From IMG/VR virus record IMGVR_UViG_3300025838_000022, positions 32,001 to 96,000 of that record: a stretch of 64,000 bases of DNA, one strand, 5' to 3'. The stretch is from a virus (Duplodnaviria > Caudoviricetes). The notes below the pieces were generated by a model, which saw nothing but the letters and a program-made list of their open reading frames with translations, did not search any database and was not told the origin of the DNA. Shown piece after piece: positions 1,528 to 41,378 of the stretch. The position numbers and the translations under genes are program-made. Position 1 is the stretch's first letter; each line of letters opens with the position of its first letter.

Positions 1528-1797
1528 ATGAGCGATGAGATCAAGAAGACAGTAGAGCCTGTTGTCGAGGCAACTGCCGAGCCATTGGGTGCTGTTATCC
1601 CCAGCGGTACGACGCTTAGCGGTACAACAATCTACAACGAGCCATGGTTCGGTCCTTGGGTCCCACAGACCTTCCCCGGTACCGTTAGCGGTGGCTATGC
1701 ACAGCCTACCTTGAGTGGTAACGGCTGGGCTGGTCAAAACAACAACGGATTCGTTTTCCAAAACGATCAATACAACACAACCGTGAGAGGATTCTAA
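1528..1797 (+). CDS. Small putative virion protein
   Basis: 89 aa, AAGGAG SD, four Ser-Gly motifs. Confidence 0.7.
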   Translation: MSDEIKKTVEPVVEATAEPLGAVIPSGTTLSGTTIYNEPWFGPWVPQTFPGTVSGGYAQPTLSGNGWAGQNNNGFVFQNDQYNTTVRGF

Positions 1798-1798
1798 C

Positions 1799-2518
1799 AT
1801 GGCTACACCAAACCTTCCTAACGAGCAAGCTACAAAGGCTACACTCCGCAGCCTGACACGTGGAGGTGTTACACCAGGTGATGTCAACCCACCAGTTGAC
1901 TATGCCATCATGGTTAATGCCATCTCTACGACCAGTGGAATCCTGGAGCTTTCAGTCCCAACCGGTAACACAAGCTTTGTTATTAGTGGTAGCAATGGTC
2001 TGAACTCTGCAGTGATTACTGGTACCTCTACTGGTACCAACGTCAATGGCCTCATTGCTGCTCTTGCCAACACGGCTCTTAGCGGTCAAACGTTCTTTGT
2101 GAACGCTGGTGGTGCTAACTACTTGAACAACACAACGACAAGCATTATCATTCCTAGCGGTGCTGTTCTGACTGTTGTCAGTGCTACGGGTACGGCTCCT
2201 ACTATTACTGCTGCTTCTGGTACTGGCACCGAAGCTAACGCTTACCCAAGCTACGTTGGTACTCCTAACGCTACTCCAAACTGGGTTGATGACGTAACTG
2301 GTCACTCATACCAGGTTGGCTACGCTGGTCAGCTGGTTGTCAACAATAATGGTACCCTGAGTGGTGCAAACGTTGTCCAAACACAGATCCGTCAGATCTT
2401 CACCGGTAACGGTCCTGACGGTGGTAGCCAGACACAGCAGTACGCTGGTTACCAGGCTACCTACTCGGGTAACTTGTACCAGACTGGTCAGAAGAGAACG
2501 TACCGTCAGCAGAGCTAA
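1799..2518 (+). CDS. Putative virion structural or decoration protein
   Basis: 239 aa, rich in Thr/Gly/Ser/Asn, codon bias like the capsid gene. Confidence 0.7.
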   Translation: MATPNLPNEQATKATLRSLTRGGVTPGDVNPPVDYAIMVNAISTTSGILELSVPTGNTSFVISGSNGLNSAVITGTSTGTNVNGLIAALANTALSGQTFFVNAGGANYLNNTTTSIIIPSGAVLTVVSATGTAPTITAASGTGTEANAYPSYVGTPNATPNWVDDVTGHSYQVGYAGQLVVNNNGTLSGANVVQTQIRQIFTGNGPDGGSQTQQYAGYQATYSGNLYQTGQKRTYRQQS

Positions 2519-2658
2519 TGGAACACGTACCTTTTAATGTAAAGGTAGAAGCAGTAGTTATTAGAACCAATGGCACTCAGGAACAACTGGGTGTCATTGG
2601 TTCTACTACTTTAAAGGATAATAGTGAACACAGTATTGACATCGACAACAAGAAGTAG
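2518..2658 (+). CDS. 46-aa hypothetical protein (not in ORF track)
   Basis: ATG overlaps the upstream TAA (TAATG). Reads MEHVPFNVKVEAVVIRTNGTQEQLGVIG... Confidence 0.6.
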   Translation: MEHVPFNVKVEAVVIRTNGTQEQLGVIGSTTLKDNSEHSIDIDNKK

Positions 2659-3229
2659 CCTCGTCAACGTCATCACAGGTTCTGGCTATTCCTTGAGTGA
2701 GCCAAAATACCTCTCTTTTGGAACTGGCTTAAGTCCTGCTTTACCTACCGATATTGCTCTTGGTAACCCTATTGGCAGTGTTATCTCTGGTACTGTTAGT
2801 ACTCTTTCTACCGTTACATCAGGTGATACGTACTTTTGTACGGGTACTTTCACTGCTAGTGGAATTGTTTCGGTTACCGAGGTAGGCCTTTTTACCAGTC
2901 AGTCTAGTTCAGCTGTAGGATCAATTGCAAGTCAGGTTAACCCTACAGATACCACCATTACAGTGAGCGGCTACAGCGGCTTTCCAGGTACCTTTCCGTT
3001 CAATGTACAGGTGCTTACCGAAGTGATGACAGTGACCTCTGGCGATGGTACAAATGTCTTCAATGTAATTCGTGGTACAAACGGCTCTAGTAGAGTGACG
3101 AGTATTATTCCAACGCTTACCCCAGTTGTAGGACCAGCAGGGTATATGTTCTTGAAAAGTACGTTTTCAGGTATCAACCTATATCCAGGGGATAATCTTC
3201 AATTTAATATCAGCGTACAATTCTCTTAG
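2624..3229 (+). CDS. Virion structural protein (tail or fibre associated)
   Basis: GTG start with AAAGGA SD. Motifs YLSFGTG...TDIAL, VTEVGLF and GDNLQF are typical of phage tail-associated proteins. Confidence 0.7.
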   Translation: MNTVLTSTTRSSLVNVITGSGYSLSEPKYLSFGTGLSPALPTDIALGNPIGSVISGTVSTLSTVTSGDTYFCTGTFTASGIVSVTEVGLFTSQSSSAVGSIASQVNPTDTTITVSGYSGFPGTFPFNVQVLTEVMTVTSGDGTNVFNVIRGTNGSSRVTSIIPTLTPVVGPAGYMFLKSTFSGINLYPGDNLQFNISVQFS

Positions 3230-3236
3230 GATCTAA

Positions 3237-6200
3237 ATGTCTTACCCCACATATACAACTCCTAGATCTATCGCTGGCGCAGCTGCACCTTCTTACCTTT
3301 CTGCAACGCTTGCTAGTGGGTACTCTGCTGGTCAAACAATTACAGTTGGCAATACATCTGGCTGGTATGAGGTAAGCTCGAGTGGCACTGCTACAACAAA
3401 TCCTTTGGGAACTAGCGGTGTATTTACGTTGGTGGTTGATTACGGCCTCAGCACAGAGGAAAAGATCCTGTGCGCATCCGGTGCTATCTCTATTGGTGTT
3501 AATGCAGTAATCCCAGTGTGGACAGACGGTACTTACAACGGCCGTGGCTGGGATGGCACAACATCGGTGGCTCACGCTACGGGCAGTGGCACGAACCCTA
3601 ACGTATTCCTGGTTAGAACCGCGGTAGATGACCTTCAATTCAACACGTCAGCGGCCACGCTTACTAACAACCTTGCCACACTCTCTGGGCAATATGCTGT
3701 CACTTCCGGAATTGTTACAGCACAATCTGGTTACATTTCTACGATCTCAGGTAAGCAAGTTACTGATGAGACAAATATTGCTAGTTTGTCAGGTAGTTTG
3801 GCAACCCTCAGTGGTCAATATGTAATAACCAGTGGTATTGTAACCGGTCACACTGGTTCAATTGCAAGCATCAGCGGTAGCCTTAATACCCTGTCGGGGC
3901 AATTTGTTGCATTGTCAGGCGCCTATGCTGTAACCTCAGGGAACCTCAACACAACAAATGGTAACCTGTCAACATTAAGTGGCCAGTTCGTAACTCTTAG
4001 TGGAGCTTACGCAACCACTTCGGGTAACTTAAACACAACGAACACAAACGTTGCGAACCTTAGCGGTCAATTTGCTTCACTGTCTGGGCAGTATCTGACT
4101 ACATCAGGGATAGTTACTGGGCACACAAGTTCAATTGCTTCAATCAGTGGCAGCCTAAACACCTTGTCTGGTCAGTACGTTGCTACCAGTGGCAGTTTAA
4201 CCACGTTGAGCGGTCAATACGTTGTAACTTCTGGTAGTCTTACAACCCTTTCAGGACAATTTGTTGTTCTAAGCGGTGCATACGCTGCTACTTCAGGTAG
4301 CCTCAACACCGTAAGCGGAGTCGCTTACTCTGCTCTGCAACGCTCTGGTGGTACTATCAGTGGTGCATTGAATATCACCAGCCCCATCCTTGGTGGTGTA
4401 ACTGCTACTAGCGGACAATCTCTTGTATGGAACAGCACACAATGGGTGCCAGCTACCATTAGTGGTGGCAGTGGAGGAAGCGGAATTACTTCACTTACAG
4501 GTGACGTAACTGCATCCGGTACGGGTGCGGTTGCTGCAACACTGGTAGGTACGACTGCTGTTAGTGGTGTAGTAAACACTATTATCAATGTTAACCCCAC
4601 TGTTACAGGAACAGTTGCAAGCCTTGCCACCCTAAGCGGCCAATTCGTTGCGCTTAGCGGAGCATATGCAATAACGTCTGGTTCGTTGAACACCGTAAGC
4701 GGAGTTGCTTATGCTGCTTTGCCAGGCTCTGGCGGCACAATTAGTGGCAACCTTGTAGTTGCTTCTGGTCTCACTGTTAGTGGAACTATAAGTGGAACTA
4801 CTGCTGTTTTTAGTGGTGGCGTAACAGCACAGTACTTATCAGTAAGTGGCATCCCAGGTTCTACGTCTGGTTCTAGATTCGTGGGTGCTATTTCAACTGG
4901 TATTAGTGGCATACCTTACGGTCCTAATTCTGGTACTTATACCGTAGGCGATTTTGTAACTGACCAAGCAGGTAAAATCTGGGTCTGCTATAGTGGCGGC
5001 ACTCCTGGTCTTTGGACTACGACACTTTACAGTCTTCCTATCTATAGAACCTATAGAGGTGGTGTAGGCGCAGCAAATAATGCTAATGGTGTAAGTATCC
5101 CAACGACAGGATCGGGACTCTTGTTAGCACCCAATGAGCAAACTATTTTGCAAATTGGTAATACACAGGGTAATGGAGTTACCTGGACATTACCTTTTAA
5201 CCCTCCAAATGGTAGCATTAATACTTTTATTAATACTAGCAATGGTTACTATACATATCTTTTGCCATCTGGTACGGATACAATTAATGTAAATAACACT
5301 GTTTATTCTGGTACTAGTAGCCCAGGTTTGTACATTGGTCCTGGTGCTTGGTACCAGTTTAGCTATGATGCTTTTGGACAGGGCAGTGGAAAAGGTGTTT
5401 GGTTTGCATTCTCCAGCAACCAGGCTCAATATTTATCTGGTAATTTTTCCAACGTTACAGTTACAGGCACTCTAAACGCTATTGGCCCTACGAATACATT
5501 AAGTGGGACAAATAATTTATTTGGTACAACAACTATTAGTGGTAGTTACGCTTTTTACCCTGCGTTATCAGGTACACCTACAGGAGCTGCAGGCGGTGAT
5601 CTTACAGGTACTTACCCTAACCCAACGTTAGTTGGAACCACAAATGTAAGCGGAATTGTTAACACTATTATCAATGTTAACTCAACGGTGACAGGTACCG
5701 CTGCTAGCTTGACTACGCTAAGTGGTCAGTATGTTGCTACTTCAGGTAGCCTCGCTACACTTTCAGGTCAGTTTGCGACCCTTAGCGGCGCCTATGCAAC
5801 CACATCAGGCAACCTCAATACAACAAATGCCAATGTAGCAAGCTTAAGCGGCCAATTTGCTTCACTTTCAGGACAATACTTAACCACCTCTGGCATCGTA
5901 ACAACAGCAACAGGTAACATTGCATCATTGTCAGGCAGCCTTGCAACGTTAAGCGGACAGTACGTAAGTACTAGTGGTAGCCTTACAACTTTGTCAGGTC
6001 AGTTTGTAACGCTTAGTGGGCAATATAACACAACATCTGGTATTGTTACTGGTCAAACGAGCTCTATCGCGCTAATTTCAGGTAACCTTAACACTGTTAG
6101 TGGTGTAGCTTATGCTGCCCTGCCAGGATCCGGTGGAACTATTAGCGGCAACCTTGTTGTTGCTTCTGGTTTTACTGTATCTGGTACATCTACTCACATT

Positions 6201-6686
6201 GGTAACTCTACGTTTAGTGGTACTCTTACAGTGGCAAGTGCCATTATCAACCCTATCCTTCAGGGTGCTTATGAAGTTGTATCTTACAGTGGATCAACCG
6301 TGCTTAGCGGAACGGCTACTCCAGCTACGCTTAATGCAGCAAACAGCTCTTTCTATTTCTATAACACAGCACCATCTGGTTCATATACTGTGGCAATCAC
6401 TGGTGCTCCAACAGTATCGGGTAGAAGTGCTACATTCGCTCTGCTGGTAAACAATGGTGCAACAGCCTATTTGCCCAATCAAATTACCATCAATGGTGTA
6501 GGCGCTTCTTCTACACTTGCACTGCCAGCCCAGGGATCTACAACTAGTGGTATTACTACCTATTACCAGGGTGGTACGTTGTGGTCATCAGCAGATGCAA
6601 GTACTCTTGACTCTTACACGTTTACTGTGATCTGCACGTCATTTACCCCAACATGGACATTGTTAGCAGGATTGACAAAGTTCTAA
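3237..6686 (+). CDS. Long fibre protein with Ser-Gly heptad coiled-coil segments
   Basis: 1149 aa. Three blocks of 7-residue repeats (LxTLSGQ / YxxTSGx), fibre-type motifs such as AGGDLTGTYPNP, and a C-terminal head-like domain. Confidence 0.85.
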   Translation: MSYPTYTTPRSIAGAAAPSYLSATLASGYSAGQTITVGNTSGWYEVSSSGTATTNPLGTSGVFTLVVDYGLSTEEKILCASGAISIGVNAVIPVWTDGTYNGRGWDGTTSVAHATGSGTNPNVFLVRTAVDDLQFNTSAATLTNNLATLSGQYAVTSGIVTAQSGYISTISGKQVTDETNIASLSGSLATLSGQYVITSGIVTGHTGSIASISGSLNTLSGQFVALSGAYAVTSGNLNTTNGNLSTLSGQFVTLSGAYATTSGNLNTTNTNVANLSGQFASLSGQYLTTSGIVTGHTSSIASISGSLNTLSGQYVATSGSLTTLSGQYVVTSGSLTTLSGQFVVLSGAYAATSGSLNTVSGVAYSALQRSGGTISGALNITSPILGGVTATSGQSLVWNSTQWVPATISGGSGGSGITSLTGDVTASGTGAVAATLVGTTAVSGVVNTIINVNPTVTGTVASLATLSGQFVALSGAYAITSGSLNTVSGVAYAALPGSGGTISGNLVVASGLTVSGTISGTTAVFSGGVTAQYLSVSGIPGSTSGSRFVGAISTGISGIPYGPNSGTYTVGDFVTDQAGKIWVCYSGGTPGLWTTTLYSLPIYRTYRGGVGAANNANGVSIPTTGSGLLLAPNEQTILQIGNTQGNGVTWTLPFNPPNGSINTFINTSNGYYTYLLPSGTDTINVNNTVYSGTSSPGLYIGPGAWYQFSYDAFGQGSGKGVWFAFSSNQAQYLSGNFSNVTVTGTLNAIGPTNTLSGTNNLFGTTTISGSYAFYPALSGTPTGAAGGDLTGTYPNPTLVGTTNVSGIVNTIINVNSTVTGTAASLTTLSGQYVATSGSLATLSGQFATLSGAYATTSGNLNTTNANVASLSGQFASLSGQYLTTSGIVTTATGNIASLSGSLATLSGQYVSTSGSLTTLSGQFVTLSGQYNTTSGIVTGQTSSIALISGNLNTVSGVAYAALPGSGGTISGNLVVASGFTVSGTSTHIGNSTFSGTLTVASAIINPILQGAYEVVSYSGSTVLSGTATPATLNAANSSFYFYNTAPSGSYTVAITGAPTVSGRSATFALLVNNGATAYLPNQITINGVGASSTLALPAQGSTTSGITTYYQGGTLWSSADASTLDSYTFTVICTSFTPTWTLLAGLTKF
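3672..4322 (+). repeat. 31 tandem 21-bp (7-aa) degenerate repeats
   Basis: 651 bp equals 31 heptads, from LATLSGQ to LNTVSGV. Related blocks lie at ~4620-4710 and ~5710-6110. Confidence 0.85.
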
Positions 6687-7766: not shown

Positions 7767-7785
7767 ATAGACCAAAGGAGATAGT

Positions 7786-8337: not shown

Positions 8338-8342
8338 GATAA

Positions 8343-9218
8343 ATGGCACGCCAACGCGTTAATTTTTACTCAGGTGTAATCAGCTCCTTAGCGAGCTCTA
8401 CTGCTGGAGCAACCACAACAATTACTGGTAACGGTTTGGGTGTGGGGTTCCCAGTGCCTAGTGCTGGTAATTACATTCCAATTACTCTTAACCCAGGTTA
8501 TTTTGGTGCTAATAACACCAGTGGCCCTGAAATCGCCTACATTACACCAGGCGGTTCTAGCACGATTGCCAACGTTACAAGAGTAGTTGAAGGATCTGTT
8601 TTCGCTAGCGGTACCAATGTACCATGGGTGGCTGGGCCTGTTTTATCTGACTTTGATGCAAGCAACCTAAGTTCAAGTGGCGTTGTTACTTTTAACAATG
8701 GCCTTGTTGTATATGGTGGCGATTCAATTTATGGCGGTGATGTAGTTCAGCAGGGTAACTTAACTGTCAGCGGTAATGCTACTGTCAGCGGTAATATTAG
8801 CACCAGCGGAACGATCACTGCTAGTGGTGCAACGTTTACTACATCACCGAATGTTACTGGTAAGTGGATGTCAAATACCGCTATCAACCCTACCGGTGTT
8901 ACCACTGGTTATTCAAACCAGGTTGCAGTTAGCGTTAGCGGTTATACCAATTACCTGATTAACTACACCATCAGAGTGGCAAGCTCAGCTAGTAATACAC
9001 AAATTATACAAGCCGCCATCCAAAAAGCAGGTTCAACAATTAGCGTAAATGCACAGCAAACTACTTCTGCTGGAGCAACAAGCACGCTGACGATCTCACA
9101 CCTGGACACTGGAGTCAGTACTGGTGTTATAACTTATGACGGTGTAGTCCTAATTGGTGGATCAGGTTCGACTGCCACAGTTGGTGGAATCGAAATGAAT
9201 GTTATTGGTCTTAATTAA
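8343..9218 (+). CDS. Virion structural or short fibre protein
   Basis: 291 aa, S/T/G-rich, with GNLTVSGN beta-helix-like repeats. Confidence 0.7.
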   Translation: MARQRVNFYSGVISSLASSTAGATTTITGNGLGVGFPVPSAGNYIPITLNPGYFGANNTSGPEIAYITPGGSSTIANVTRVVEGSVFASGTNVPWVAGPVLSDFDASNLSSSGVVTFNNGLVVYGGDSIYGGDVVQQGNLTVSGNATVSGNISTSGTITASGATFTTSPNVTGKWMSNTAINPTGVTTGYSNQVAVSVSGYTNYLINYTIRVASSASNTQIIQAAIQKAGSTISVNAQQTTSAGATSTLTISHLDTGVSTGVITYDGVVLIGGSGSTATVGGIEMNVIGLN

Positions 9219-10808: not shown

Positions 10809-11329
10809 TGTTTGAAAGCATACCTGCACCAGAACAATTAACAGAACGAATTGCTAGACGTGCAGTGCAAATTGCACAGGTTATTGGTCCACGTAGAACT
10901 AGCGCGAGTTTGAACAGCCTTTTCCCTATTTCTGATAATGGCATAATTGGCTTAGAAGTACCACCAGAGACTGCATATATTTTTGATCTTGAAAATGGCG
11001 TTAAAGCACACGCTATGATGGATTTAGCTGGTAGAGTAATTCCTATCAGAAAAACGGATGGAACAATAGCATTTAGAACAGCTAGTGCTGACAAAATTGG
11101 TACTATACCAATTATTAATAGAAATTTTAAAGACGGTAAAATTCAAACCGTAAAGCGTGAATGGTATTACCCAGAAAAACCAGGACTTCATTTTCTACAA
11201 AAATCATTGAAAATGAGCGTTGATGAATGGAAAAGAACAGCAAACACTAACGATATTGTCAATATGCTTATACAAACAGAGTATAAAGATGATATTAGTC
11301 AAATAGTATATGGAAGACCTGCTATCTAA
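10808..11329 (+). CDS. Putative tail completion or neck protein
   Basis: TAATG-coupled start (MFESIPAP...). W.YPEKPG.HFL motif and gene position. Confidence 0.55.
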   Translation: MFESIPAPEQLTERIARRAVQIAQVIGPRRTSASLNSLFPISDNGIIGLEVPPETAYIFDLENGVKAHAMMDLAGRVIPIRKTDGTIAFRTASADKIGTIPIINRNFKDGKIQTVKREWYYPEKPGLHFLQKSLKMSVDEWKRTANTNDIVNMLIQTEYKDDISQIVYGRPAI

Positions 11330-33486: not shown

Positions 33487-33924
33487 ATGGCAAATTCCAT
33501 CGACTTAAGCTGGCAACGAGAAGCAGCTTGTAAAAACACCTCATTAGTCAACTATGAGTCGTATTACCCATCCCGTGGCAGAACCTCCGAAGGCAAAGCA
33601 AAAGCTTTGTGCAACACGTGCCCAGTACAAAAAGCTTGCTTAGACCACGCTCTAAAATATGAAGACTATGGCTTCTGGGGTGGTGTAAGTGCTAAGGGCA
33701 GAGAGCGTATGCGTAAGGAATTGGGCATTGAATTGATTGATATTAATTACGAATCAATTATCAAATACGCAAAAGAACGCGAAAAAATTCAAGAAGCTAT
33801 ACAAAATAACAAGATGAAGCGTGGCCCCAAAAGGAAGCCAAAAAACGTTGACAACAGCTTGACATTTGATCCAACAGCTGAATATAATGACATTGATTTA
33901 ACCATTGATGAACTGGAGTATTAA
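33487..33924 (+). CDS. whiB: WhiB-family transcription regulator
   Basis: W..EAAC...AKALCNTCPV..ACL..AL...GFWGG with the four Fe-S Cys. Confidence 0.92.
   Translation: MANSIDLSWQREAACKNTSLVNYESYYPSRGRTSEGKAKALCNTCPVQKACLDHALKYEDYGFWGGVSAKGRERMRKELGIELIDINYESIIKYAKEREKIQEAIQNNKMKRGPKRKPKNVDNSLTFDPTAEYNDIDLTIDELEY
33859..33888 (+). promoter_or_regulatory. Consensus SigA promoter inside the whiB 3' end
   Basis: TTGACA (33859-64), N18, TATAAT (33883-88). Lies 35 nt before the first glycosyltransferase gene. Confidence 0.6.
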
Positions 33925-35210
33925 TGTCTAATAAGATTCGCGTATTGGCTTGGGGTGACTACGCTTGCGGTACTGGTTTTGGTACTGTGATGAAGAACAT
34001 CATGGGAGAGATTCACAAGACCGGCAAGTATGACATCGACGTTGTCGGTGTTAACTACGATGGTGGTCCATATGACACAAAGCTGTGGCCTGGCAGACTG
34101 TGGCCAGCTATCAGTGCTCTTCGCACCCAAGGCCCATACGGTGACGTGTTTGGTAGACAGGTATTCCTAGACCTGCTTGCACAGGGCGACTATGACCTCG
34201 TGTTCGTTGTGCAAGACACCTTTATTGTTTTGCCAATCGTTCCACAGATTCTCGAGCTGCAGCGCAACAAGCCAAACAGCTTTAAGACAATCTACTACTA
34301 CCCATTTGACTGCACACCGCGTGAAGAATGGGTCACCCAGTGTGTTGCCAACTTCGACTATCCGGTTGCTTACACCGAGTATGCAAAGAACGAGAGCCGT
34401 AGCTTTATTGGCGCGTTTGCTGACAATCAACACGTTATTTACCATGGTACGAACACAAAGGACTTCCATCCTTTGACTCCAGAGCAGCGTGAAGAAGCAC
34501 GTAGAAGTATCTTCCCACAGATGCAGGACCGTTTTATCATTACGAACGTGAACCGCAACCAGGGTCGCAAGGATATTTCACGTAGTTTGATGATTCTTAA
34601 AGAGCTTCGCAACCGTGGTTTGGACAAGCCATTCTTGTACATGCATATGCAGGAAACCGACTTCGGTGGCAGTGTCATGCAAATGGCTAGATCAATTGGC
34701 CTGGACCCATCAAAGGACTTCGCCCTTCCAGACCCTAAGCAATTTGGTGCTCACAGTGGATTCCCAATCGAGTTCCTCAACGGTATCTATAACGCAAGTG
34801 ACGCTTACCTCACTACCACCCACGGTGAAGGCTGGGGCCTTAGCATCACAGAGGCAATGGCTGTCAAGCTACCAGTGATTGCACCAGACAACACGTCTGT
34901 ACCAGAAATCCTTGGAGACGACCGTGGCTGGAGAATTCCAAGTGGTCACACACCTTCTCACTGGATCATCAAGGAAAACGACAATGAGCGTATGCGTCCT
35001 TTGATGAGTGTTGAAGATGCTGCTAGTGCAATCGAATACATCATGAACAACCCTGATGATGCTGCTAGACGTGCCGAGAATGCATACCAGTGGATCCAGA
35101 AGACTACCTGGGCTGACGTTTGTAAGCAATGGAAGAACTTGTTCGAGGAAGCAAAGGCTAGCCTCGACAAGAAGCGCAGTTTCTTGAATACGCTTAATCA
35201 AAGCAAGTAA
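33924..35210 (+). CDS. Glycosyltransferase, GT4-like (GT-B fold)
   Basis: TGFG, NRNQGRKD and EGWGLSITEAMA (EX7E) motifs. Confidence 0.9.
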   Translation: MSNKIRVLAWGDYACGTGFGTVMKNIMGEIHKTGKYDIDVVGVNYDGGPYDTKLWPGRLWPAISALRTQGPYGDVFGRQVFLDLLAQGDYDLVFVVQDTFIVLPIVPQILELQRNKPNSFKTIYYYPFDCTPREEWVTQCVANFDYPVAYTEYAKNESRSFIGAFADNQHVIYHGTNTKDFHPLTPEQREEARRSIFPQMQDRFIITNVNRNQGRKDISRSLMILKELRNRGLDKPFLYMHMQETDFGGSVMQMARSIGLDPSKDFALPDPKQFGAHSGFPIEFLNGIYNASDAYLTTTHGEGWGLSITEAMAVKLPVIAPDNTSVPEILGDDRGWRIPSGHTPSHWIIKENDNERMRPLMSVEDAASAIEYIMNNPDDAARRAENAYQWIQKTTWADVCKQWKNLFEEAKASLDKKRSFLNTLNQSK

Positions 35211-35212
35211 AC

Positions 35213-35980
35213 ATGACAGGGTGTTTTAAGATCTTTCACCTTGATTGGATGAAAGAACGACAGCAGCTTTTTGACAATGCCAGAGAGGTGTTGAGCAAAG
35301 AGTATGAAGAGCTGAATAGCCCTAACTTTTATGTAAACTCGCTTGGCGACATCCCAGGTATGCTTGCACAAACACCTGGGCTCAACTTCCACCCAGATGG
35401 TTATTGGGATACAGGTAACCCAGCTATTGGTTGGACTAAGGGTGAGATTCCAATCTTTGTTGCTAACTACGTAGCATGGAAAAACTTCCTAGAAACAGAT
35501 CATGATTTCTTGATCCTGTGTGAAGACGACATTGTATTCCACAGCTACGGTGTGCCGCTGCTAAAGCACTACATGGCCATGCTTCCAGAAGACTGGGACG
35601 TATTCTCCTTCTATTGCCCAACTGGTCAGTACTTTAAGTACCGTGATGAAGAGCACAAAATTGGTGACGGGCCAATCAGTCGTGCTTATCAGGATCACCA
35701 TCTTTTATGCTACGTTGTAAGCCGTAAGGGTGCAGAAAACCTTATTAAAGACGCTGAATCTCACATCATCATGGACCCAATCGACTGGTTTATCTTTTAC
35801 CAGAACGACATCCTGAACGTCTACACTGTTAAGCCAAGAGAAGAGCATGGTGTTATGAGCGTTGAGCTTGACAGCACCGTAGGCCATAGTGTAAGGTGTC
35901 CTCTGCCAGAGCTTGAACCAGACACTAGCCTCCCACTTGTATCACACTGGCAAAGATGGCACGCGAAAAGGGTTAAGTAA
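35213..35980 (+). CDS. Glycosyltransferase, GT25-like
   Basis: GE...AW..F, LILCEDD, YVVSRKGA and PIDWF motifs. Confidence 0.75.
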   Translation: MTGCFKIFHLDWMKERQQLFDNAREVLSKEYEELNSPNFYVNSLGDIPGMLAQTPGLNFHPDGYWDTGNPAIGWTKGEIPIFVANYVAWKNFLETDHDFLILCEDDIVFHSYGVPLLKHYMAMLPEDWDVFSFYCPTGQYFKYRDEEHKIGDGPISRAYQDHHLLCYVVSRKGAENLIKDAESHIIMDPIDWFIFYQNDILNVYTVKPREEHGVMSVELDSTVGHSVRCPLPELEPDTSLPLVSHWQRWHAKRVK

Positions 35981-36852
35981 TGAAGATTGCATACAACGGT
36001 TTTTGGCCACTATTTGATCCAAGTCACAACTGGTTTAACCAAATGTTCCGTGAGTACTTTAAGGGAGAAGACATTGTTTTTAGTGGTGACCCTACCGATG
36101 CTGATATTCTTGTAAACAGCGTGTTCGGCCCAGCTATCACGGATGGTCCAGCTCGGAAGATACTTTACACGGGAGAGTCATTTAAGCACGGCTATACAGA
36201 TGATCAAATTCTATTGGGGTTTGATAGAACCGACGTAGCTAAGCAAAAGTACCGTTTGCCGATCTGGATTGTATTCACTAATTGGTGGCCTGAAACATAC
36301 ACTCCACCATATTATGTTGGTGGGCCAAACTATGTTGTTGACGCTAACAAATTGGTTCTACCACGCACCGAAAAAGAAGTTAATGAGATACTAGGCAGAG
36401 AAAATTTCTGTTGTATCGTTGCGTCTAACCCTGTTGAGAACAGAATCATTGCATATAACCAGCTTTCCGACATTAAACCTGTGGACGGTTATGGCCACAT
36501 CTTTAGGAACCATATTCAAAATCGAAAAGAAGACATTCTAAAACACTACAGCTTTAATATTTGTTTTGAAAATACTATTGTTGATGGCTATGTAACTGAA
36601 AAGCTTTACGAAGCACTGCTCGCTGGTACAATCCCCATTTATTGGGGTGACAAAATGAGCAAAGAAGACTTTAACGAGAAGGCTTTTATTGACTATACTT
36701 CGATGGACTCAATGGATGATCTCGTTGACCACGTAAAAAAGGTTTATGCGTCCAAAGACCTAATGGCAGAATACCTATCACAACCTATTTGCAATGAAGT
36801 ACCAAGCCTCGATGGTCTTTATGAGTTTTTTGATCAAGTTAAGTTAAAATAA
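35980..36852 (+). CDS. GT10 alpha-1,3/4-fucosyltransferase-like protein
   Basis: FNICFENT..DGYVTEKL.EA..AGTIPIYWG signature, plus YTGE and VASNP motifs. Confidence 0.88.
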   Translation: MKIAYNGFWPLFDPSHNWFNQMFREYFKGEDIVFSGDPTDADILVNSVFGPAITDGPARKILYTGESFKHGYTDDQILLGFDRTDVAKQKYRLPIWIVFTNWWPETYTPPYYVGGPNYVVDANKLVLPRTEKEVNEILGRENFCCIVASNPVENRIIAYNQLSDIKPVDGYGHIFRNHIQNRKEDILKHYSFNICFENTIVDGYVTEKLYEALLAGTIPIYWGDKMSKEDFNEKAFIDYTSMDSMDDLVDHVKKVYASKDLMAEYLSQPICNEVPSLDGLYEFFDQVKLK

Positions 36853-36865
36853 TATAAGGTATATA

Positions 36866-37366
36866 ATGGATAGCAAAGTTTTTAAGAAGTATAAATTTGA
36901 TGCAACCGTTTTTTTTGAAACGGGAACGTATCTGGGTAATGCAATTTTGGAAGCCGCTGTAGCAGGGTTTGATGAATTTTATTCTATTGAATTCCACCCA
37001 CCATTTTATGAAGAGACCAAAGAACGTTTTAAGAACAATGATAAAGTGCACCTGTATCAAGGCTCATCAGACAAGGTAATCGCTGAGGTGCTTCCCACTA
37101 TTGAAAAGCGTTGCTTGTTCTGGCTTGATGCTCACGACACATTCCATGTAACAGATGGCAGCTTGCCTACATTTGGTGAGCTTGACATCATCAAAGAACA
37201 CCCTATTAAGAATCACACGATCATCATTGACGACACGCCAGTGTTCTTTGGCGATGGTGTCGAGCTGAACAAGAAACTTCTAGAGATTAATCCTGATTAT
37301 ACAATTGAACGCATTCCAAATGCGACTGTTGAAGATTATATTACTGTCGCTTATATCAAGGAGTAG
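36866..37366 (+). CDS. SAM-dependent methyltransferase-like protein
   Basis: FFETGTYLG, YSIE, GSS, FWLDAH and IIIDD motifs. Confidence 0.65.
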   Translation: MDSKVFKKYKFDATVFFETGTYLGNAILEAAVAGFDEFYSIEFHPPFYEETKERFKNNDKVHLYQGSSDKVIAEVLPTIEKRCLFWLDAHDTFHVTDGSLPTFGELDIIKEHPIKNHTIIIDDTPVFFGDGVELNKKLLEINPDYTIERIPNATVEDYITVAYIKE

Positions 37367-37368
37367 TC

Positions 37369-38196
37369 TTGAAAACCAGTATCGTAGTGACATCAAAAAA
37401 TGATAACTATGGTGGTTATCTAAATCTTCGCGCTGCTTATGCGTTGAATCAAATGCTTAAGGTCTTTGATGAAGTCGTATACGTTGACTGGTGCTCGGAT
37501 GATGACAATAGCTTAATCCACGATGTTAATCTTGATAAAACTGGTCGCCTAAAGCACATCCAGGTTACCAAGAAGGATGTTGCTAATATCAATCCTGATC
37601 TTCTTGAGATACCAATCGTTGAAGTGCTTGGTAGAAATATTGGCGTTAGAAGGTCTAGTGGAGATTGGATTGTGTCAAGCAACATTGACATTCTCCCTGA
37701 TAAACCTAACGTTTCTACACTGAACAAAGACATGATGTACGCAGCGCAACGCAGGAACGTACCACTTGATGTCACATTGAACGCACCAGAAAATTTCTTT
37801 AATTTCCTTCAAGAGAACCGTAACATGTTTGTGCAGGCTCAACGAATTTACGATACACATGCTGGAAGATACGACCCATGGTCTCTTACGGTGTGCTGTG
37901 GAGATTTCCAGCTGGCTCATAAAGATCTATGGCACAAAATGAAGGGCTTTGAAGAGACGCTTCTCTATAGAGATTGCGGTGATAGTAACGTCCTAAAAAA
38001 GGCTACTATTTATGGCAGCGGAGCAGATTTAATCTACTTAGATGTTTTTCACCTTGACCACGATGGTCACTTCTTAAACGTCGGTGGCGTGTCAAAAAAG
38101 AACGATTGGGATGAATCTGTAGGAAACTTTGAGTCTACAACAAATCCTGACACCTGGGGGCTTTCTGATTATCAATTCCATGAGGAGACATTGTGA
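37369..38196 (+). CDS. GT-A fold (GT2-like) glycosyltransferase
   Basis: SKNDNYGG, VDW, RNIGVRR..GDWIVSSNID and GDFQL...KGFEE motifs. Confidence 0.7.
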   Translation: MKTSIVVTSKNDNYGGYLNLRAAYALNQMLKVFDEVVYVDWCSDDDNSLIHDVNLDKTGRLKHIQVTKKDVANINPDLLEIPIVEVLGRNIGVRRSSGDWIVSSNIDILPDKPNVSTLNKDMMYAAQRRNVPLDVTLNAPENFFNFLQENRNMFVQAQRIYDTHAGRYDPWSLTVCCGDFQLAHKDLWHKMKGFEETLLYRDCGDSNVLKKATIYGSGADLIYLDVFHLDHDGHFLNVGGVSKKNDWDESVGNFESTTNPDTWGLSDYQFHEETL

Positions 38197-39098
38197 AAAA
38201 AGTAATTGTAACAACAACTATCAATAGCCCAACGCTAGCTACTAAGAAATTTGCTAAAAAAGAGGGCTGGGAACTTGTAGTCGTTGGTGACACTAAGACT
38301 CCTCACGAAGAATACAAGAACATTAATTGCACGTATTTAAGTCCAAGCGTTCAAGAAGAATTGTATCCGGAGCTGAGTGAAGCCATTGGTTGGAAGACTA
38401 TTCAGCGTAGGAACATTGGGTTCGTATACGCGTATAACATTGGCGCAGATGTAGTAGCCACAGTGGATGACGACAACATTCCTTACGACAGCTGGGGCGA
38501 AGACATCCTCGTCGGCAAAACAATTGAATGTGACCTTTACGAGCCAGTAAACGACGTGTTCGATCCCTTATCAGTTACCAAGGATAATTATGTATGGCAT
38601 AGGGGTTATCCCATTGAATACGTGCCAACAAGACACCGTGTTGAGTACAAGGGTAAAACCCATAGAAAAGTGCTGGTACAGGCAGACCTATGGGACGGTG
38701 ACCCTGACATCGACGCACTGGCAAGATTGTCGCACAAGCCAATTGTAAAATACGATATCACACAGCCATATTGTTCTAACAGAATCTCACCCTTCAATAG
38801 CCAGAATACATTCATCGCCAGGGAAGCACTACCGTACTACTCTGTGTTGCCATTTATTGGTCGAATGGACGATATCTGGGGAGGTTACATCCTACAGCAC
38901 CACTTCCCAGGTTCTGTGGTATACAACAGGGCTTCTGTGTACCAGGATAGAAACGTGCAAGATTTAGTTACCAACCTAGAGAATGAAATCGTTGGCTACC
39001 GAAACACGCTAAGCCTATTAAACGATCTTGAAAACTATAGGAATTACTTGCCAGAAAAATCACTTAATTTCTTGCGCGAGTACGAAAAGCTATTCTAA
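38193..39098 (+). CDS. STELLO/RGP (DUF288/GT75-related) protein
   Basis: VTTTIN, VVVGD.KTP, RNIGF.YA...DDDN, DPDIDA, PFNSQNT and RMDDIW motifs. Confidence 0.75.
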   Translation: MKKVIVTTTINSPTLATKKFAKKEGWELVVVGDTKTPHEEYKNINCTYLSPSVQEELYPELSEAIGWKTIQRRNIGFVYAYNIGADVVATVDDDNIPYDSWGEDILVGKTIECDLYEPVNDVFDPLSVTKDNYVWHRGYPIEYVPTRHRVEYKGKTHRKVLVQADLWDGDPDIDALARLSHKPIVKYDITQPYCSNRISPFNSQNTFIAREALPYYSVLPFIGRMDDIWGGYILQHHFPGSVVYNRASVYQDRNVQDLVTNLENEIVGYRNTLSLLNDLENYRNYLPEKSLNFLREYEKLF

Positions 39099-39817
39099 TG
39101 AACCTGTTGATTCATCAACCATTGGGCCTTGGAGACATCCTGTGGCTGCAACCAATGGTAAATGTATATATTAGCCTTGGTTATGAAGTTTACTTCCCCG
39201 TATCAGACGTATACTATGACATGGTATCTGATTACATTGAGAAGGATCATCTCAACTGGGTAAGGGAATCAGATGAATTCCCAATGAAAAAGTATTATGG
39301 TTCACCATCGCCGGAATTCATTGGGAATGATGTTTACCTGCCAATATCATTCTCAGATAAAATTTTACCCAACTCAGGCATCATGGCGTCTAAGTATTTT
39401 TGGTTAAACATGCCCATTGTAAACTGGCATGATAGCTTTAATATCAATAGAAACTATGAACGAGAAGAGTTGTTGTTAAGAAAATACAATTTGTACGATG
39501 AGTATATTCTTGTCAATAAATCGTTTGCTACAAACCCTATTCATAGAGAAATAAAATTTGTAGAAAAAGCTCCTGTTCATGCGATGAATGTTCAACAGGA
39601 TAAAGATAACGGTTTTCACTTGTTTGACTGGATCGGTGCATTGCAAAGTGCCCAGGAAATTCACACGGTAGAGACCTCTATCTGCTATCTTATTGATAAG
39701 TATTGTACTGAACCAAGCCTTCACATGTATGAGCGTAGGCATGAGGATGGGCAAAGAACTTATTTTAATTCTGTTAACCTAGTTTATAGAAACCCAGGGT
39801 GGATATATGAAAATTGA
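39098..39817 (+). CDS. Putative glycosyltransferase-related protein
   Basis: N-terminal HQPLGLGD and A.EIH.VETS motifs, typical of GT-B-like proteins in glycan clusters. Confidence 0.55.
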   Translation: MNLLIHQPLGLGDILWLQPMVNVYISLGYEVYFPVSDVYYDMVSDYIEKDHLNWVRESDEFPMKKYYGSPSPEFIGNDVYLPISFSDKILPNSGIMASKYFWLNMPIVNWHDSFNINRNYEREELLLRKYNLYDEYILVNKSFATNPIHREIKFVEKAPVHAMNVQQDKDNGFHLFDWIGALQSAQEIHTVETSICYLIDKYCTEPSLHMYERRHEDGQRTYFNSVNLVYRNPGWIYEN

Positions 39818-40205
39818 AGTGTCTAATGGCGAAGTCTTTGACAAGATCGGCATCCTCAAGATCAAGCAAAGAAAAAACGCAGGCAAAGATAAGATGATGG
39901 ATTATAATATCGAGCAGGAACTAAAAGAACTTCAACAAATTGAACCGCCCATCAACGTATGGGCACTTAAGTACATTGAAGAGCTCGAACAAGTCAACGA
40001 AAAGCTTTGGGACGTTGAAGACGAGTTGAGGATTTGTGAGGCAAACCAAGACTTCTCAGAAAAATTTATTAATCTTGCTAGGTCTGTATACATTCTCAAC
40101 GACAAACGTGCTAAGTTAAAGTATGACATCAACATGCTTACAAAAAGTAAGTTTGTGGAGCACAAAATCCTACCTAATTACGAAGGAACATCCTATGACG
40201 TTTGA
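39807..40205 (+). CDS. DUF6165-like protein
   Basis: VSNGE..DK..IL.IK, N..LWD.ED..R and LARSVY.LND.RA..K..IN motifs. Confidence 0.7.
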   Translation: MKIEVSNGEVFDKIGILKIKQRKNAGKDKMMDYNIEQELKELQQIEPPINVWALKYIEELEQVNEKLWDVEDELRICEANQDFSEKFINLARSVYILNDKRAKLKYDINMLTKSKFVEHKILPNYEGTSYDV

Positions 40206-40386
40206 AGAATGGCTAGAGTTCGGCATCAAGAACGGGTATTGCTCAGAACAGTTTTGCGATACTCACGATGGCCCGCCAATGCATGAGAGCGAAGAAAAAG
40301 CCTGGGAATATGGCGGAGATCCTTGCATGCATATGCTAAGATTGGGTACAATTGAAGACTGGAATATATCTACGGAGGAAGAATGA
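40195..40386 (+). CDS. Small hypothetical protein
   Basis: MTFEEWL...C..HDG.P...DPC, with an AAGGA SD. Confidence 0.65.
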   Translation: MTFEEWLEFGIKNGYCSEQFCDTHDGPPMHESEEKAWEYGGDPCMHMLRLGTIEDWNISTEEE

Positions 40387-41378
40387 AAAAGGCATTAGTT
40401 CTTGGAGCAGGTGGTTTTATTGGTAGCCACATGGTTACTCGTCTAAAGAATGAAGGGTATTGGGTGCGAGGCGTAGACCTCAAGCGTCCGGAGTTCAGCG
40501 AAACAACAGCAGACGAATTCGTAATTGGTGATCTTACAGATCAGAGCACTGTTAGCCGTGTGACGTTGGTTAGCGCGATGGAACCATTCGATGAGATTTA
40601 TCAGTTTGCTGCCGACATGGGCGGTGCTGGTTACATCTTTACCGGTGAGCACGACTCTGCCGTTATGTACAACTCAGGTATCATCAACCTTAACGTTGCA
40701 GAACGCGTACGCAAGATCAATAGCTTTACTGACCAGAACAAGACCAAGATATTTTACAGCAGCAGTGCTTGCATGTATCCAGAGCACAACCAGCTCGATC
40801 CAAACAACCCTAACTGCACAGAAGACAGCGCATATCCTGCATCCCCTGACAGTGAGTATGGTTGGGAAAAGCTTTTCAGTGAGCGTCTTTACTTGGCGTA
40901 CAACCGTAATTGCAACATCCCTGTTCGCATTGCACGCTTCCACAACATCTACGGCGTAGAGGGCACATGGAAGGGTGGTAAGGAGAAGGCTCCTGCTGCT
41001 ATGTGCCGTAAGGTTGCCGAGGCTGTTGACGGTGGTACCATTGAGATCTGGGGTGACGGTGAGCAAACCCGCAGCTTCCTCTATATTGACGAGTGCATTG
41101 AGGCTGTGCGCCGTTTGATGAAGAGCGAATTCATGGGCCCTGTCAACATTGGTAGCGAAGAGATGGTTACTATTAATCAACTTGTCGAAACCGTTGCAAA
41201 GGTGGCCGGTAAGAATATCAATGTTAAGCACATTGACGGCCCCCTTGGTGTGCGTGGGCGTAACAGTGACAACACTCTCATCAGAGAAAAGTTAAACTGG
41301 GACTACTCGATGTCACTTGAAGAAGGCATTACTAAGACTTACGAATGGATTGAGAGCCAAATCAAACGCAATGCATAA
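40383..41378 (+). CDS. GDP-mannose 3,5-epimerase-like NAD-dependent epimerase
   Basis: GAGGFIG, AADMGG.GYI, SSAC.YP, YGWEK, EKAPAA.CRK and GVRGRNSDN are characteristic GME motifs. Confidence 0.9.
   Translation: MKKALVLGAGGFIGSHMVTRLKNEGYWVRGVDLKRPEFSETTADEFVIGDLTDQSTVSRVTLVSAMEPFDEIYQFAADMGGAGYIFTGEHDSAVMYNSGIINLNVAERVRKINSFTDQNKTKIFYSSSACMYPEHNQLDPNNPNCTEDSAYPASPDSEYGWEKLFSERLYLAYNRNCNIPVRIARFHNIYGVEGTWKGGKEKAPAAMCRKVAEAVDGGTIEIWGDGEQTRSFLYIDECIEAVRRLMKSEFMGPVNIGSEEMVTINQLVETVAKVAGKNINVKHIDGPLGVRGRNSDNTLIREKLNWDYSMSLEEGITKTYEWIESQIKRNA

What the first reader, a model, noticed from the sequence alone, without database searches (positions are those of the whole stretch)
1528..41378. Candidate virion-wide Ser-Gly O-glycosylation system: a sequon in exposed virion proteins plus a phage-encoded glycan pathway
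Seen, by hand count: the dipeptide S-G (often [T/I/V/L/A/Y]-S-G) is very frequent in most virion proteins. There are 7 in the 225-aa tail terminator (including STSGITISGVTYSGL), 12 in the first ~300 aa of the sheath, about 27 in the baseplate-J insertion, and dozens in the fibre. There are none in the tail tube, the gp25-like wedge, the C-terminal ~220 aa of the sheath or the C-terminal baseplate-J domain. It is rare in non-virion proteins (about 5 in 1097-aa DnaE, 1 in DnaB). The genome also carries a cluster of at least five glycosyltransferase-type genes and a nucleotide-sugar epimerase (33924-41378). Established: the tube is enclosed by the sheath and the sheath C-terminal domain lies innermost; some mycobacteriophages O-glycosylate virions with their own GTs; Ser-Gly is the acceptor motif for eukaryotic proteoglycan xylosylation. 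Inference: S-G is an acceptor sequon selected on outer surfaces, giving a dense glycan coat for shielding, stability or adhesion.
Basis: partly seen in the sequence, partly recalled or inferred. Interest (0 to 1): 0.88.

Follow-up and report, generated by a model that had tools for sequence, protein, structure and literature searches.

The report
Ser-Gly excess on phage tail proteins
The outer tail, baseplate and fibre proteins of this uncultured lake phage carry two to four times more Ser-Gly pairs than chance allows, and among its relatives this excess occurs only in phages that also carry one conserved sugar-transferase gene. The pairs may therefore be attachment sites for a phage-made sugar coat, but no chemistry has tested this.

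Summary
Outside the big fibre, virion proteins have 144 Ser-Gly (SG) against 77 expected, the strongest outlier of 400 dipeptides. Gly-Ser (GS) is at expectation (69/77), and non-virion proteins show no excess (28/32). The fibre has 90 against 24, and 54 of those sit in a 7-residue repeat. The excess lies in the protein, not the DNA. It appears in about ten non-homologous proteins and only in outer parts: baseplate-J insertion 27 vs 6, sheath residues 1-300 12 vs 4. It is not virion-wide: capsid, tube, tape measure and hub are not enriched.

T4, Myrna and Finch show no excess. The family-4 glycosyltransferase gene (GT4, 33924-35210) follows WhiB in all 25 relatives that cover that spot, whereas the other glycosyltransferases vary. 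The sister lineage lacks GT4 (G008 is complete; G007 is a fragment) and lacks the excess; SG is replaced there by TG, NG, DG or AA. This is one evolutionary contrast only. Flanks of distant GT4 homologues show only the baseline.

Best reading (about 0.45): serine O-glycosylation sites primed by GT4 and extended by the variable transferases. Main rival (about 0.35): a lineage-specific strand-turn and solenoid idiom, with the sugar genes serving another target.

Earlier scan notes report similar SG excesses in other uncultured phages.

The parts
1528..1797 (+). 89-aa SG-rich protein downstream of the capsid gene (4 SG, expected 0.7)
   Evidence: p 0.002; no Pfam or PHROG match
1799..2518 (+). 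239-aa SG-rich protein (7 SG, 2 GS, expected 2.5). It is present in GT4-bearing relatives and absent from G008.
2624..3229 (+). 201-aa SG-rich protein (8 SG, 4 GS, expected 3.5)
3237..6686 (+). 1149-aa fibre with 90 SG, 25 GS and 23.7 expected. It has two arrays of a 7-residue repeat, x-[YLF]-x-[TV]-[LT]-S-G, which hold 54 of the SG.
   Evidence: Pfam LbR_Ice_bind E 1.3e-20; weak match to the P22 gp26 needle; AF2 fold failed
8343..9218 (+). 291-aa SG-rich protein (10 SG, 5 GS, expected 5.3) with a short run of six-residue repeats such as NLTVSG NATVSG
11329..12006 (+). 225-aa protein directly upstream of the sheath gene (terminator-like by position) with 7 SG against 1.8 expected. Homologues in the GT4-less phages have 0 SG.
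12076..13653 (+). Tail sheath. All 12 SG lie in residues 1-300 (expected 4.4); there are none in the conserved C-terminal part.
14150..15163 (+). 337-aa protein after the tube gene (9 SG, 3 GS, expected 4.8)
24527..27040 (+). Baseplate-J protein with a 455-residue insertion that holds 27 of its 28 SG (expected 6.1). 24 alignment columns are SG in at least half of 19 relatives.
27040..28008 (+). DUF7297 baseplate-associated protein (4 SG, 0 GS, expected 1.6)
28008..31232 (+). 1074-aa tail fibre or minor tail protein (20 SG, 8 GS, expected 8.2; 15 of the SG lie in residues 601-1074)
33859..33888 (+). The only perfect TTGACA-N18-TATAAT site in the window, 36 nt before the GT4 start
   Evidence: consensus match only; partly kept in relatives
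33924..35210 (+). GT4-family (GT-B) glycosyltransferase. It is a core gene that follows WhiB in all 25 relatives covering the spot, at 75-82% identity.
35213..35980 (+). GT25-like glycosyltransferase (weak match); part of the variable island
   Evidence: Pfam 22.8 bits against a cut-off of 24; phrog_2835 E 8e-8
35980..36852 (+). GT10 fucosyltransferase-like protein; part of the variable island
   Evidence: Pfam Glyco_transf_10 E 9e-21 and FucT_N; homologues in cyanophages
36866..37366 (+). 166-aa ORF in the island with no family match
37369..38196 (+). Divergent GT2-like protein, inferred through homologues
   Evidence: homologues at about 40% identity carry PF00535
38193..39098 (+). 301-aa ORF; a lead to RGP/STELLO-type glycosyltransferase-like proteins
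   Evidence: Atlas feature neighbours; PF03214 on 18-48% of members; lead only
39098..39817 (+). 239-aa ORF in the island with no family match
   Evidence: a homologue sits beside GT25 and GT10 homologues in L040
39807..40205 (+). DUF6165 protein
40383..41378 (+). SDR nucleotide-sugar epimerase/reductase. Its best named match is GDP-L-fucose synthase, far below the cut-off.

Best explanation
The SG pairs, typically [V/I]-T-x-S-G-T at the end of a beta-strand, are acceptor sites for serine O-glycosylation of outer tail, baseplate and fibre proteins.

Proposed mechanism:
- The conserved cytoplasmic GT4 enzyme (33924-35210) adds the first sugar before or during assembly.
- The variable downstream island extends it into a glycan that differs between phage lineages. 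In this genome the island holds GT25-like, GT10 fucosyltransferase-like and GT2-like genes, an RGP-like lead, and an SDR sugar-nucleotide enzyme.
- The heptad arrays of the 1149-aa fibre would then form a bottle-brush glyco-fibre.

Shown here: the excess, its serine specificity and direction, its restriction to outer regions, its conservation across the clade, and its co-occurrence with GT4.

Inferred: that GT4 acts on proteins, that serine in SG is the acceptor, and the nature of the sugars.
For: - SG is the top outlier of 400 dipeptides in non-fibre virion proteins (144/77). GS, TG, NG, DG and AG stay near 1, and non-virion proteins show nothing.
- The effect is at the amino-acid level: serine codons come from both codon boxes.
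- It arises independently in about ten non-homologous proteins, which points to a factor acting in trans.
- It sits only in outer or insertion regions, even when judged against local composition.
- All 19 distinct relatives keep 21-32 SG in baseplate J (expected 8-11). 53% of sites are retained, against about 30% for GS or TG. Newly arisen SG (about 11 per protein) outnumber new GS (6-8).
- GT4 is syntenic and 75-82% identical in 25 of 25 relatives. GT4 also occurs in more distant SG-rich phages: G004, G005, G006, G010 and G012.
- The sister lineage lacks GT4: G008 is complete with terminal repeats, and G007 is a 61%-complete fragment in which no GT4 was found. In their outer proteins SG is 1.04-1.27 times expectation, rank 83 and 10. 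In the fully homologous terminator-like protein the SG positions read TG, NG, DG or AA, so SG is not required by the fold.
- Of 55 proteins conserved in the GT4-bearing set, only 13 found no qualifying match (at least 40% of query length) in G008. Three of those (hub, baseplate J, tail fibre) do have partial homologues there. GT4 is the only recognisable modifying enzyme among them that occurs in all six contigs; the SDR is also on the list, in 4 of 6 at 22-30% identity.
- T4, Myrna and Finch tail proteins show no asymmetry.
- Precedent: virions of Che8, Corndog and the structural relative Myrna are glycosylated by phage glycosyltransferases (PMC12363180 and PMC11256854, citing Freeman 2023).
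- From my own knowledge: GT4 enzymes GtfA and SdgA/B O-glycosylate serines in simple repeats, and in the GtfA systems the extension enzymes are variable.
Against: - There is no chemical evidence of any glycan.
- G007 and G008 form one sister clade (the node has 63% support), so the co-occurrence is a single evolutionary event.
- The flanks of 54 loci with distant GT4 homologues show only the general baseline: SG at 1.26 times expectation, against 1.23 in GT4-less loci. TJE1 and S-CBS4, which carry GT4 homologues, are also at baseline.
- The capsid protein, the largest exposed surface and the glycosylated target in mycobacteriophages, is not enriched.
- 54 of the fibre SG are one structural heptad, which matches a beta-roll family that ends its repeats in (V/I)SG without glycosylation.
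- Where the AlphaFold2 (AF2) model is usable, SG sits at strand-to-turn junctions. A purely structural reading predicts this too.
- GT4 shows no specific similarity to known protein O-glycosyltransferases: GtfA 21 bits against a cut-off of 575, SdgA 15 against 800. It also hits the 'GT4-conflict' family.
- G008 has its own GT2 gene in the structural module, so the lack of SG there is not a lack of glycosyltransferases.
Confidence: 0.45

Rival explanations
1. This is a structural idiom only. SG is the preferred strand-to-turn corner of the beta-solenoid, beta-roll and beta-sandwich modules that this lineage uses for its outer domains. The sugar genes, GT4 included, act on something else, such as host envelope glycans (superinfection exclusion or release) or another non-virion target. 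The co-occurrence with GT4 is then shared ancestry.
For: - The fibre repeat is a 7-residue unit ending in SG. It matches Pfam LbR_Ice_bind, whose repeats also end in SG (E 1.3e-20).
- There are short hexa- and pentapeptide SG runs in 8343-9218 and 11329-12006.
- In the AF2 model most SG sit between strands.
- A mild general asymmetry (SG about 1.2 times expectation, GS about 1.0) exists in unrelated phage loci, with or without GT4.
- There is only one phylogenetic contrast.
- The baseplate-J insertion of G007 and G008 is a different, non-homologous module.
- The capsid is not enriched.
Against: - The SG-rich regions are not homologous to each other.
- SG also rises inside folds that are homologous in GT4-less phages, where the same positions hold TG, NG, DG or AA. 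The fold therefore does not demand SG.
- Generic turn pairs (NG, DG, TG) are not enriched in the GT4-bearing phages.
- T4, Myrna and Finch fibres and baseplates show no asymmetry.
- New SG sites keep arising in excess.
Confidence: 0.35
2. Another trans-acting partner selects for SG. This could be a different serine modification (phosphorylation, acylation, ADP-ribosylation) or a decoration or assembly protein that docks on Thr-x-Ser-Gly turns, encoded by one of the small clade-specific genes.
For: About eight further proteins of unknown function are conserved in the GT4-bearing set and absent from complete G008, several of them in the head region. The multi-protein, serine-specific pattern calls for a trans-acting factor but does not name it.
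Against: No kinase, acyltransferase or ADP-ribosyltransferase signature was found among the proteins scanned. GT4 is the only such gene present in all six GT4-bearing contigs tested and the only recognisable enzyme apart from a weakly similar SDR.
Confidence: 0.1
3. The excess is a compositional or counting artefact: serine- and glycine-rich patches, or repeats counted many times.
For: The outer regions are rich in Ser, Gly and Thr. 54 of the fibre SG come from one repeat.
Against: - GS, with the same composition, is at expectation everywhere.
- The excess survives expectations based on local composition and removal of the fibre.
- Per-protein shuffles give p of 0.0003-0.04 in 11 proteins.
Confidence: 0.02

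Closest known systems
Virion O-glycosylation of mycobacteriophages Che8, Corndog and Myrna by phage-encoded glycosyltransferases (Freeman et al. 2023; known here only through the citing papers PMC12363180 and PMC11256854)
   Same: It is an actinobacteriophage. Myrna belongs to the same structural family (sheath 25% identical, same gene order). The phage carries its own glycosyltransferases, and the proposed outcome is a glycan coat on virion proteins.
   Different: - There is no homology between the enzymes. GT4 finds no mycobacteriophage at E 1e-5, and Myrna has no PF00534 gene.
- Myrna's tail proteins show no SG excess.
- The reported targets there are the capsid and tail tube, which are not enriched here.
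- Nothing has been shown chemically here.
Serine-rich-repeat adhesin glycosylation (GtfA/GtfB) and SD-repeat glycosylation (SdgA/SdgB) of Gram-positive cocci (from my own knowledge)
   Same: A cytoplasmic GT4 (GT-B) enzyme would prime serines in short, simple repeated motifs of a fibre-like surface protein. In the GtfA systems, variable extra glycosyltransferases extend the glycan. That matches the layout here of a conserved GT4 followed by a variable GT island.
   Different: - The equivalog models score far below their cut-offs (TIGR02918 21 bits against 575; NF047880 15 against 800).
- No GtfB-like partner was found.
- The motif is SG at strand ends in many folded proteins, not a long disordered Ser-rich tract.
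Lolium perenne ice-binding protein beta-roll (Pfam PF21300, LbR_Ice_bind)
   Same: Both have 7-residue repeats ending in (V/I/L)-S-G. The fibre matches the profile at 73.7 bits against a cut-off of 30.
   Different: The plant protein is a 118-residue monomer. Here the repeats form parts of a 1149-aa phage fibre. The fold is not confirmed (AF2 pLDDT 33), and a weak rival match to the P22 gp26 coiled-coil needle exists.
Autotransporter heptosylation by Aah/TibC (from my own knowledge)
   Same: Serines in the short turns of beta-helix repeats are glycosylated, and the enzyme recognises a strand-loop-strand motif rather than a strict sequence.
   Different: The enzyme family is different (heptosyltransferase, not GT4). 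No homologue was sought or found here.
Eukaryotic proteoglycan xylosylation at Ser-Gly
   Same: The same dipeptide serves as acceptor.
   Different: No GT14-type or xylosyltransferase-like gene and no UDP-xylose synthase were recognised in the cluster. The acidic flanks typical of that sequon are absent; the flanks here are Thr, Val and Ile.

Membership tests
GT4 / Glycos_transf_1 (GT-B) glycosyltransferases | Profile match to PF00534 above the curated cut-off | tested here: met
   44.8 bits against a cut-off of 26.4; also PF13692, PF20706 and phrog_2170 at E 1e-43
Protein O-GlcNAc transferases GtfA / SdgA (GT4 subfamilies) | Equivalog-level match to TIGR02918 or NF047880 | tested here: not met
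   21.2 bits against 574.6, and 15.3 against 800. The matches cover only the generic C-terminal GT-B half.
Mycobacteriophage virion-glycosylation system | Homology of the glycosyltransferase to those of Che8, Corndog or Myrna | tested here: not met
   tblastn of GT4 against 50,697 phage records finds no mycobacteriophage. There is no PF00534 match in Myrna (G019).
Mycobacteriophage virion-glycosylation system | Glycan covalently bound to virion proteins | not testable with these tools
   This needs mass spectrometry or glycan staining of virions or co-expressed proteins.
GT10 fucosyltransferases | Match to PF00852 above cut-off, plus the FucT N-terminal domain | tested here: met
   74.8 bits against 23.9; PF18025 32.2 bits against 27.2
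GT25 (LPS galactosyltransferase-like) | Match to PF01755 above cut-off | tested here: inconclusive
   22.8 bits against a cut-off of 24; supported by phrog_2835 'glucosyltransferase' at E 8e-8
GT2 (Glycos_transf_2) | Match to PF00535 | tested here: inconclusive
   The protein 37369-38196 itself has no Pfam hit, but homologues at about 40% identity carry PF00535.
LbR_Ice_bind beta-roll | Profile match above cut-off, and a beta-roll fold | tested here: inconclusive
   The profile criterion is met (73.7 bits against 30). The fold is not confirmed (AF2 pLDDT 33).
Glycosylation sequon (general) | Motif excess co-varies with the transferase across independent lineages | tested here: inconclusive
   There is one clean contrast within the family. 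There is no excess in the flanks of 54 distant GT4-family loci.
Proteoglycan-type Ser-Gly xylosylation | A GT14-type xylosyltransferase and UDP-xylose supply | tested here: not met
   No such family appears among the cluster ORFs in Pfam, NCBIfam or PHROGs.

The most novel reading that the evidence does not exclude
A two-residue sequon, Ser-Gly at strand ends, is read by a conserved phage GT4 enzyme in a large clade of freshwater actinobacteriophages. Lineage-specific extension enzymes build different glycans on it. The result would be glycan-coated tails and baseplates and bottle-brush glyco-fibres, a bacterial-virus counterpart of mucin or proteoglycan decoration. Similar SG excesses noted by this scan in other uncultured phages may reflect the same mechanism.
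Probability: 0.4. Interest if true: 0.8.

Novelty: new variant of a known kind. Interest (0 to 1): 0.62.

Why it matters
Phage virion glycosylation has been shown only recently, in a few mycobacteriophages, and no simple acceptor rule is cited in the papers I could read.

If Ser-Gly is such a rule, glycosylated phage proteins could be predicted from sequence alone. The role of the very common but unexplained glycosyltransferase genes of environmental phages would become testable. A small transferase-plus-tag pair might also be usable for decorating proteins.

If the excess is purely structural, it is still a clean example of a lineage-wide sequence idiom in phage outer domains. It would also be a warning against reading sequons from dipeptide counts.

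Tried and rejected
- **DNA-level motif:** rejected. SG serine codons spread over AGY and TCN like other serines.
- **Compositional patchiness:** rejected. GS is at expectation and the excess survives local-composition expectations.
- **One shared domain copied into many proteins:** rejected. All-against-all BLAST found no homology between the SG-rich regions.
- **General property of phage tails and fibres:** rejected. The ratios of observed to expected, SG/GS, are T4 1.06/1.09, Myrna 1.08/1.22 and Finch 1.13/1.13.
- **Independent test in phages with GT4 homologues:** gave only the baseline. TJE1 is 1.31 and S-CBS4 1.29. In 54 IMG/VR loci SG is 1.26 times expectation, against 1.23 in GT4-less loci. 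This test is uninformative or negative, because the flanks may lack outer virion genes.
- **AF2 of baseplate J with 17 sequences:** mean pLDDT 57, usable only in part. Exposure could not be computed because no coordinates are returned.
- **AF2 of the fibre repeat from a single sequence:** failed, pLDDT 33.
- **BLAST of the fibre repeat against phage records:** no match.
- **DNA hypermodification as the target of the glycosyltransferases:** no hydroxymethylase-type genes were seen among the replication genes scanned. This is not excluded.
- **Freeman et al. 2023:** could not be read.
- **G007 fibre homologue:** it is a different fibre type, so it gives no information on the heptad.

Full report
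**What the window is.** All genes of interest lie on the + strand.
- The window holds the 3' part of a major capsid gene (7-768).
- A block of small proteins and a 1149-aa fibre follow (1528-7423).
- Next come connector-like genes, then sheath (12076-13653), tube (13663-14136), chaperones, tape measure, hub and a gp25-like gene.
- The tail module ends with baseplate J (24527-27040), a DUF7297 protein and a 1074-aa fibre (28008-31232).
- After these come an SNF2 helicase, WhiB (33487-33924), a sugar-gene block (33924-41378) and replication genes.
- The sheath is 25-29% identical to those of Rhodococcus phage Finch and mycobacteriophage Myrna, and the gene order is the same.
- The genome is a single 122.8-kb contig of about 45% G+C. 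With WhiB, this fits an uncultured phage of low-G+C actinobacteria.

**The observation.**
- Shuffling each protein gives p of 0.0003-0.04 for SG in eleven virion proteins and nothing for GS.
- Pooled without the big fibre, SG is 144 observed against 77.3 expected. This is the strongest outlier of all 400 dipeptides (z 7.6). GS is 69/77, and TG, NG, DG and AG are all near 1. Non-virion proteins have 28/32.
- The excess survives expectations from local composition: baseplate-J insertion 27 vs 6.1, sheath residues 1-300 12 vs 4.4, and each segment of the fibre 3-5 fold.
- The serine codons in SG come from both codon boxes in the usual proportions, so the signal is in the protein.
- No sequence homology links the SG-rich regions.
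- The context is [V/I] at -3, Thr at -2 (3.1 fold) and Thr at +1 and +2, counted after the Gly. This is the alternation of a beta-strand that ends in a turn.
- Two corrections matter. The capsid protein, tube, tape measure, hub, gp25-like protein and chaperones are not enriched, so the feature belongs to the outer tail, baseplate and fibres rather than to the whole virion. Also, 54 of the 90 fibre SG belong to one 7-residue repeat, x-[YLF]-x-[TV]-[LT]-S-G.

**The fibre repeat.**
- The repeat region matches Pfam LbR_Ice_bind, a beta-roll of 7-residue units that also end in SG (73.7 bits, E 1.3e-20).
- It matches the coiled-coil needle gp26 of P22 more weakly (E 4e-4).
- It contains almost no charged residues; residues 801-960 have none. 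With a glycine in every unit, this argues against an alpha-helical coiled coil.
- AF2 on the single sequence failed (pLDDT 33).
- This part of the count therefore has a sufficient structural explanation. That does not exclude modification of the same serines.

**The sugar genes.**
- GT4 (33924-35210) and GT10 (35980-36852) pass the Pfam cut-offs.
- 35213-35980 is GT25-like, just below the cut-off, with PHROG support.
- 37369-38196 is GT2-like through homologues that carry PF00535.
- 38193-39098 has only an Atlas lead to RGP/STELLO-type proteins.
- 40383-41378 is an SDR sugar-nucleotide enzyme.
- The genes abut or overlap by a base, which suggests an operon.
- The only perfect TTGACA-N18-TATAAT site of the window sits 36 nt before GT4.

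**Relatives.**
- Twenty-seven IMG/VR loci with baseplate J at 50-62% identity share the order baseplate J, DUF7297, fibre, SNF2, WhiB, GT4.
- GT4 is present in all 25 loci that reach that far, at 75-82% identity. That is better conserved than most virion proteins.
- The rest of the island is variable. Only L040 shares the GT25, GT10 and 39098-39817 homologues, and G001 has almost nothing after GT4.
- All 19 distinct baseplate-J proteins have 21-32 SG (expected 8-11) and 5-11 GS. The downstream fibre behaves in a similar way, with 14-28 SG against an expectation of 7-10 and GS near expectation in most.
- Serine in SG is somewhat better kept than other serines (0.55-0.57 against 0.41-0.44 identity to the reference).
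- 53% of reference SG sites are retained, against about 30% for GS or TG.
- SG sites unique to a relative (about 11) exceed unique GS sites (6-8).
- 24 columns are SG in at least half of the baseplate-J sequences, against 3 for GS.
- The pattern is therefore a semi-conserved core plus continuing gain, not frozen positions.

**Controls.**
- Tail, baseplate and fibre proteins of T4, given as SG/GS ratios of observed to expected, are 1.06/1.09. Myrna is 1.08/1.22 and Finch 1.13/1.13.
- Forty-two loci of distant relatives, of which only one of the 30 records tested for PF00534 carries it, have a median SG of 1.20 times expectation and GS of 1.00. There is thus a small general asymmetry. No single protein there approaches the values seen here.

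**The natural experiment.**
- A search with the tube protein found intermediate relatives.
- G004, G005, G006, G010 and G012 carry GT4 at 50-64% identity.
- G008 is a complete genome with terminal repeats. It has no GT4 and no PF00534 gene, although it has a GT2 gene inside its structural module.
- G007, a 91-kb contig, also has none.
- In outer proteins, SG is 1.7-2.65 times expectation and rank 1-2 of 400 in the GT4 carriers. It is 1.04 and 1.27, rank 83 and 10, in G007 and G008.
- In the GT4-less phages, TG or NG are mildly raised instead.
- In the terminator-like protein, which aligns over its full length, the six to seven SG positions of this phage read TG, NG, DG, AA or SP in G007 and G008. 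Two are still SG in the more distant GT4 carriers G010 and G012.
- The capsid protein is 96-99% identical across all of these phages.
- Of 55 proteins conserved in the GT4-bearing set, 13 found no qualifying match in G008. Three of these (hub, baseplate J, fibre) do have partial homologues there. GT4 is the only recognisable modifying enzyme among the 13 that occurs in all six contigs; the SDR also appears, in 4 of 6 at 22-30% identity.

**Limits of that experiment.**
- A concatenated tree of seven proteins puts G007 and G008 together as sister to all GT4 carriers, with 63% support for that node. The contrast is therefore one evolutionary event.
- The baseplate-J insertion of G007 and G008 is a different module.
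- Phages that carry distant GT4 homologues do not show more SG than the baseline. This holds for TJE1, S-CBS4 and 54 IMG/VR loci, though their flanks may not hold outer virion genes.

**Structure.** The AF2 model of baseplate J is poor (mean pLDDT 57). In its usable parts most SG lie where a strand ends and a short loop begins. Both readings predict this. Exposure could not be computed.

**Weighing.**
- A serine-specific, directional motif has risen in about ten unrelated outer proteins of one lineage. It keeps being gained, and other residues replace it in the same folds of the sister lineage. This calls for a cause that acts in trans on many proteins.
- The only recognisable candidate present throughout the lineage that carries the excess is GT4.
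- Its layout, a conserved first enzyme followed by variable extension enzymes, resembles the glycosylation systems of serine-rich repeat adhesins (my own knowledge).
- Virion glycosylation exists in related actinobacteriophages (PMC12363180, PMC11256854).
- Against this stand the single contrast, the unenriched capsid, the structural sufficiency of the heptad, the lack of specific similarity to known protein O-glycosyltransferases, and the complete absence of chemistry.
- I put SG-directed glycosylation at about 0.45, a purely structural idiom with unrelated sugar genes at about 0.35, and another trans-acting partner at about 0.1.

**Relation to earlier notes of this scan.** Earlier notes (e1-5705633, e1-5699067, e1-5940044, e1-5946020) report comparable SG excesses beside glycosyltransferase genes in other uncultured phages. 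They are unchecked and do not count as evidence here. They do show that the scan has met this pattern on other DNA. Unlike some of those notes, I do not find that the serine 'almost never' changes; it is only moderately conserved.

Noticed in passing
window 33859-33888: The only perfect sigma-70 consensus (TTGACA-N18-TATAAT) in the 64-kb window lies inside the 3' end of WhiB, 36 nt before the GT4 start. Several relatives have a TTGACA...TAnnnT site at the same place.
   Followed up: partly
window 7-768 and homologues in G002, G003, G004, G006, G008, G010: The major capsid protein is 96-99% identical between phages whose tail and baseplate proteins are only 30-60% identical. This means either extreme constraint on the capsid or recent exchange of the capsid gene.
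   Followed up: no
G008 (L137) 34520-34924, minus strand: The GT4-less complete relative carries a 421-aa GT2-family gene (PF00535, E 5e-13) inside its structural module. It may use a different transferase and a different acceptor motif.
   Followed up: no
G010 (L152-L155), outer virion proteins: The dipeptide Gln-Gly is 92 observed against 35 expected in this relative's outer proteins. I have not located where it lies. It is another strong dipeptide excess.
   Followed up: no
window 3237-6686, protein residues 801-960: This 160-residue stretch of heptads has no Asp, Glu, Lys, Arg, His or Pro at all. The region matches both a beta-roll Pfam family and, weakly, the P22 gp26 coiled-coil needle. 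Its fold is unresolved.
   Followed up: partly
window 6653-7423: A 256-aa protein with 25% glycine (Pfam Gly_rich_2) starts 34 nt inside the 3' end of the fibre gene. Myrna has comparable glycine-rich proteins (gp113, gp114) in the same block of genes between the capsid and sheath genes.
   Followed up: no
In siphoviruses TJE1 and S-CBS4 it sits beside or inside the head-morphogenesis genes.
   Followed up: partly
window 33924, 35980, 38193-38196, 39098: WhiB and GT4, GT25 and GT10, and further island genes overlap by one to four bases. This suggests translational coupling along the whole sugar-gene block.
   Followed up: no
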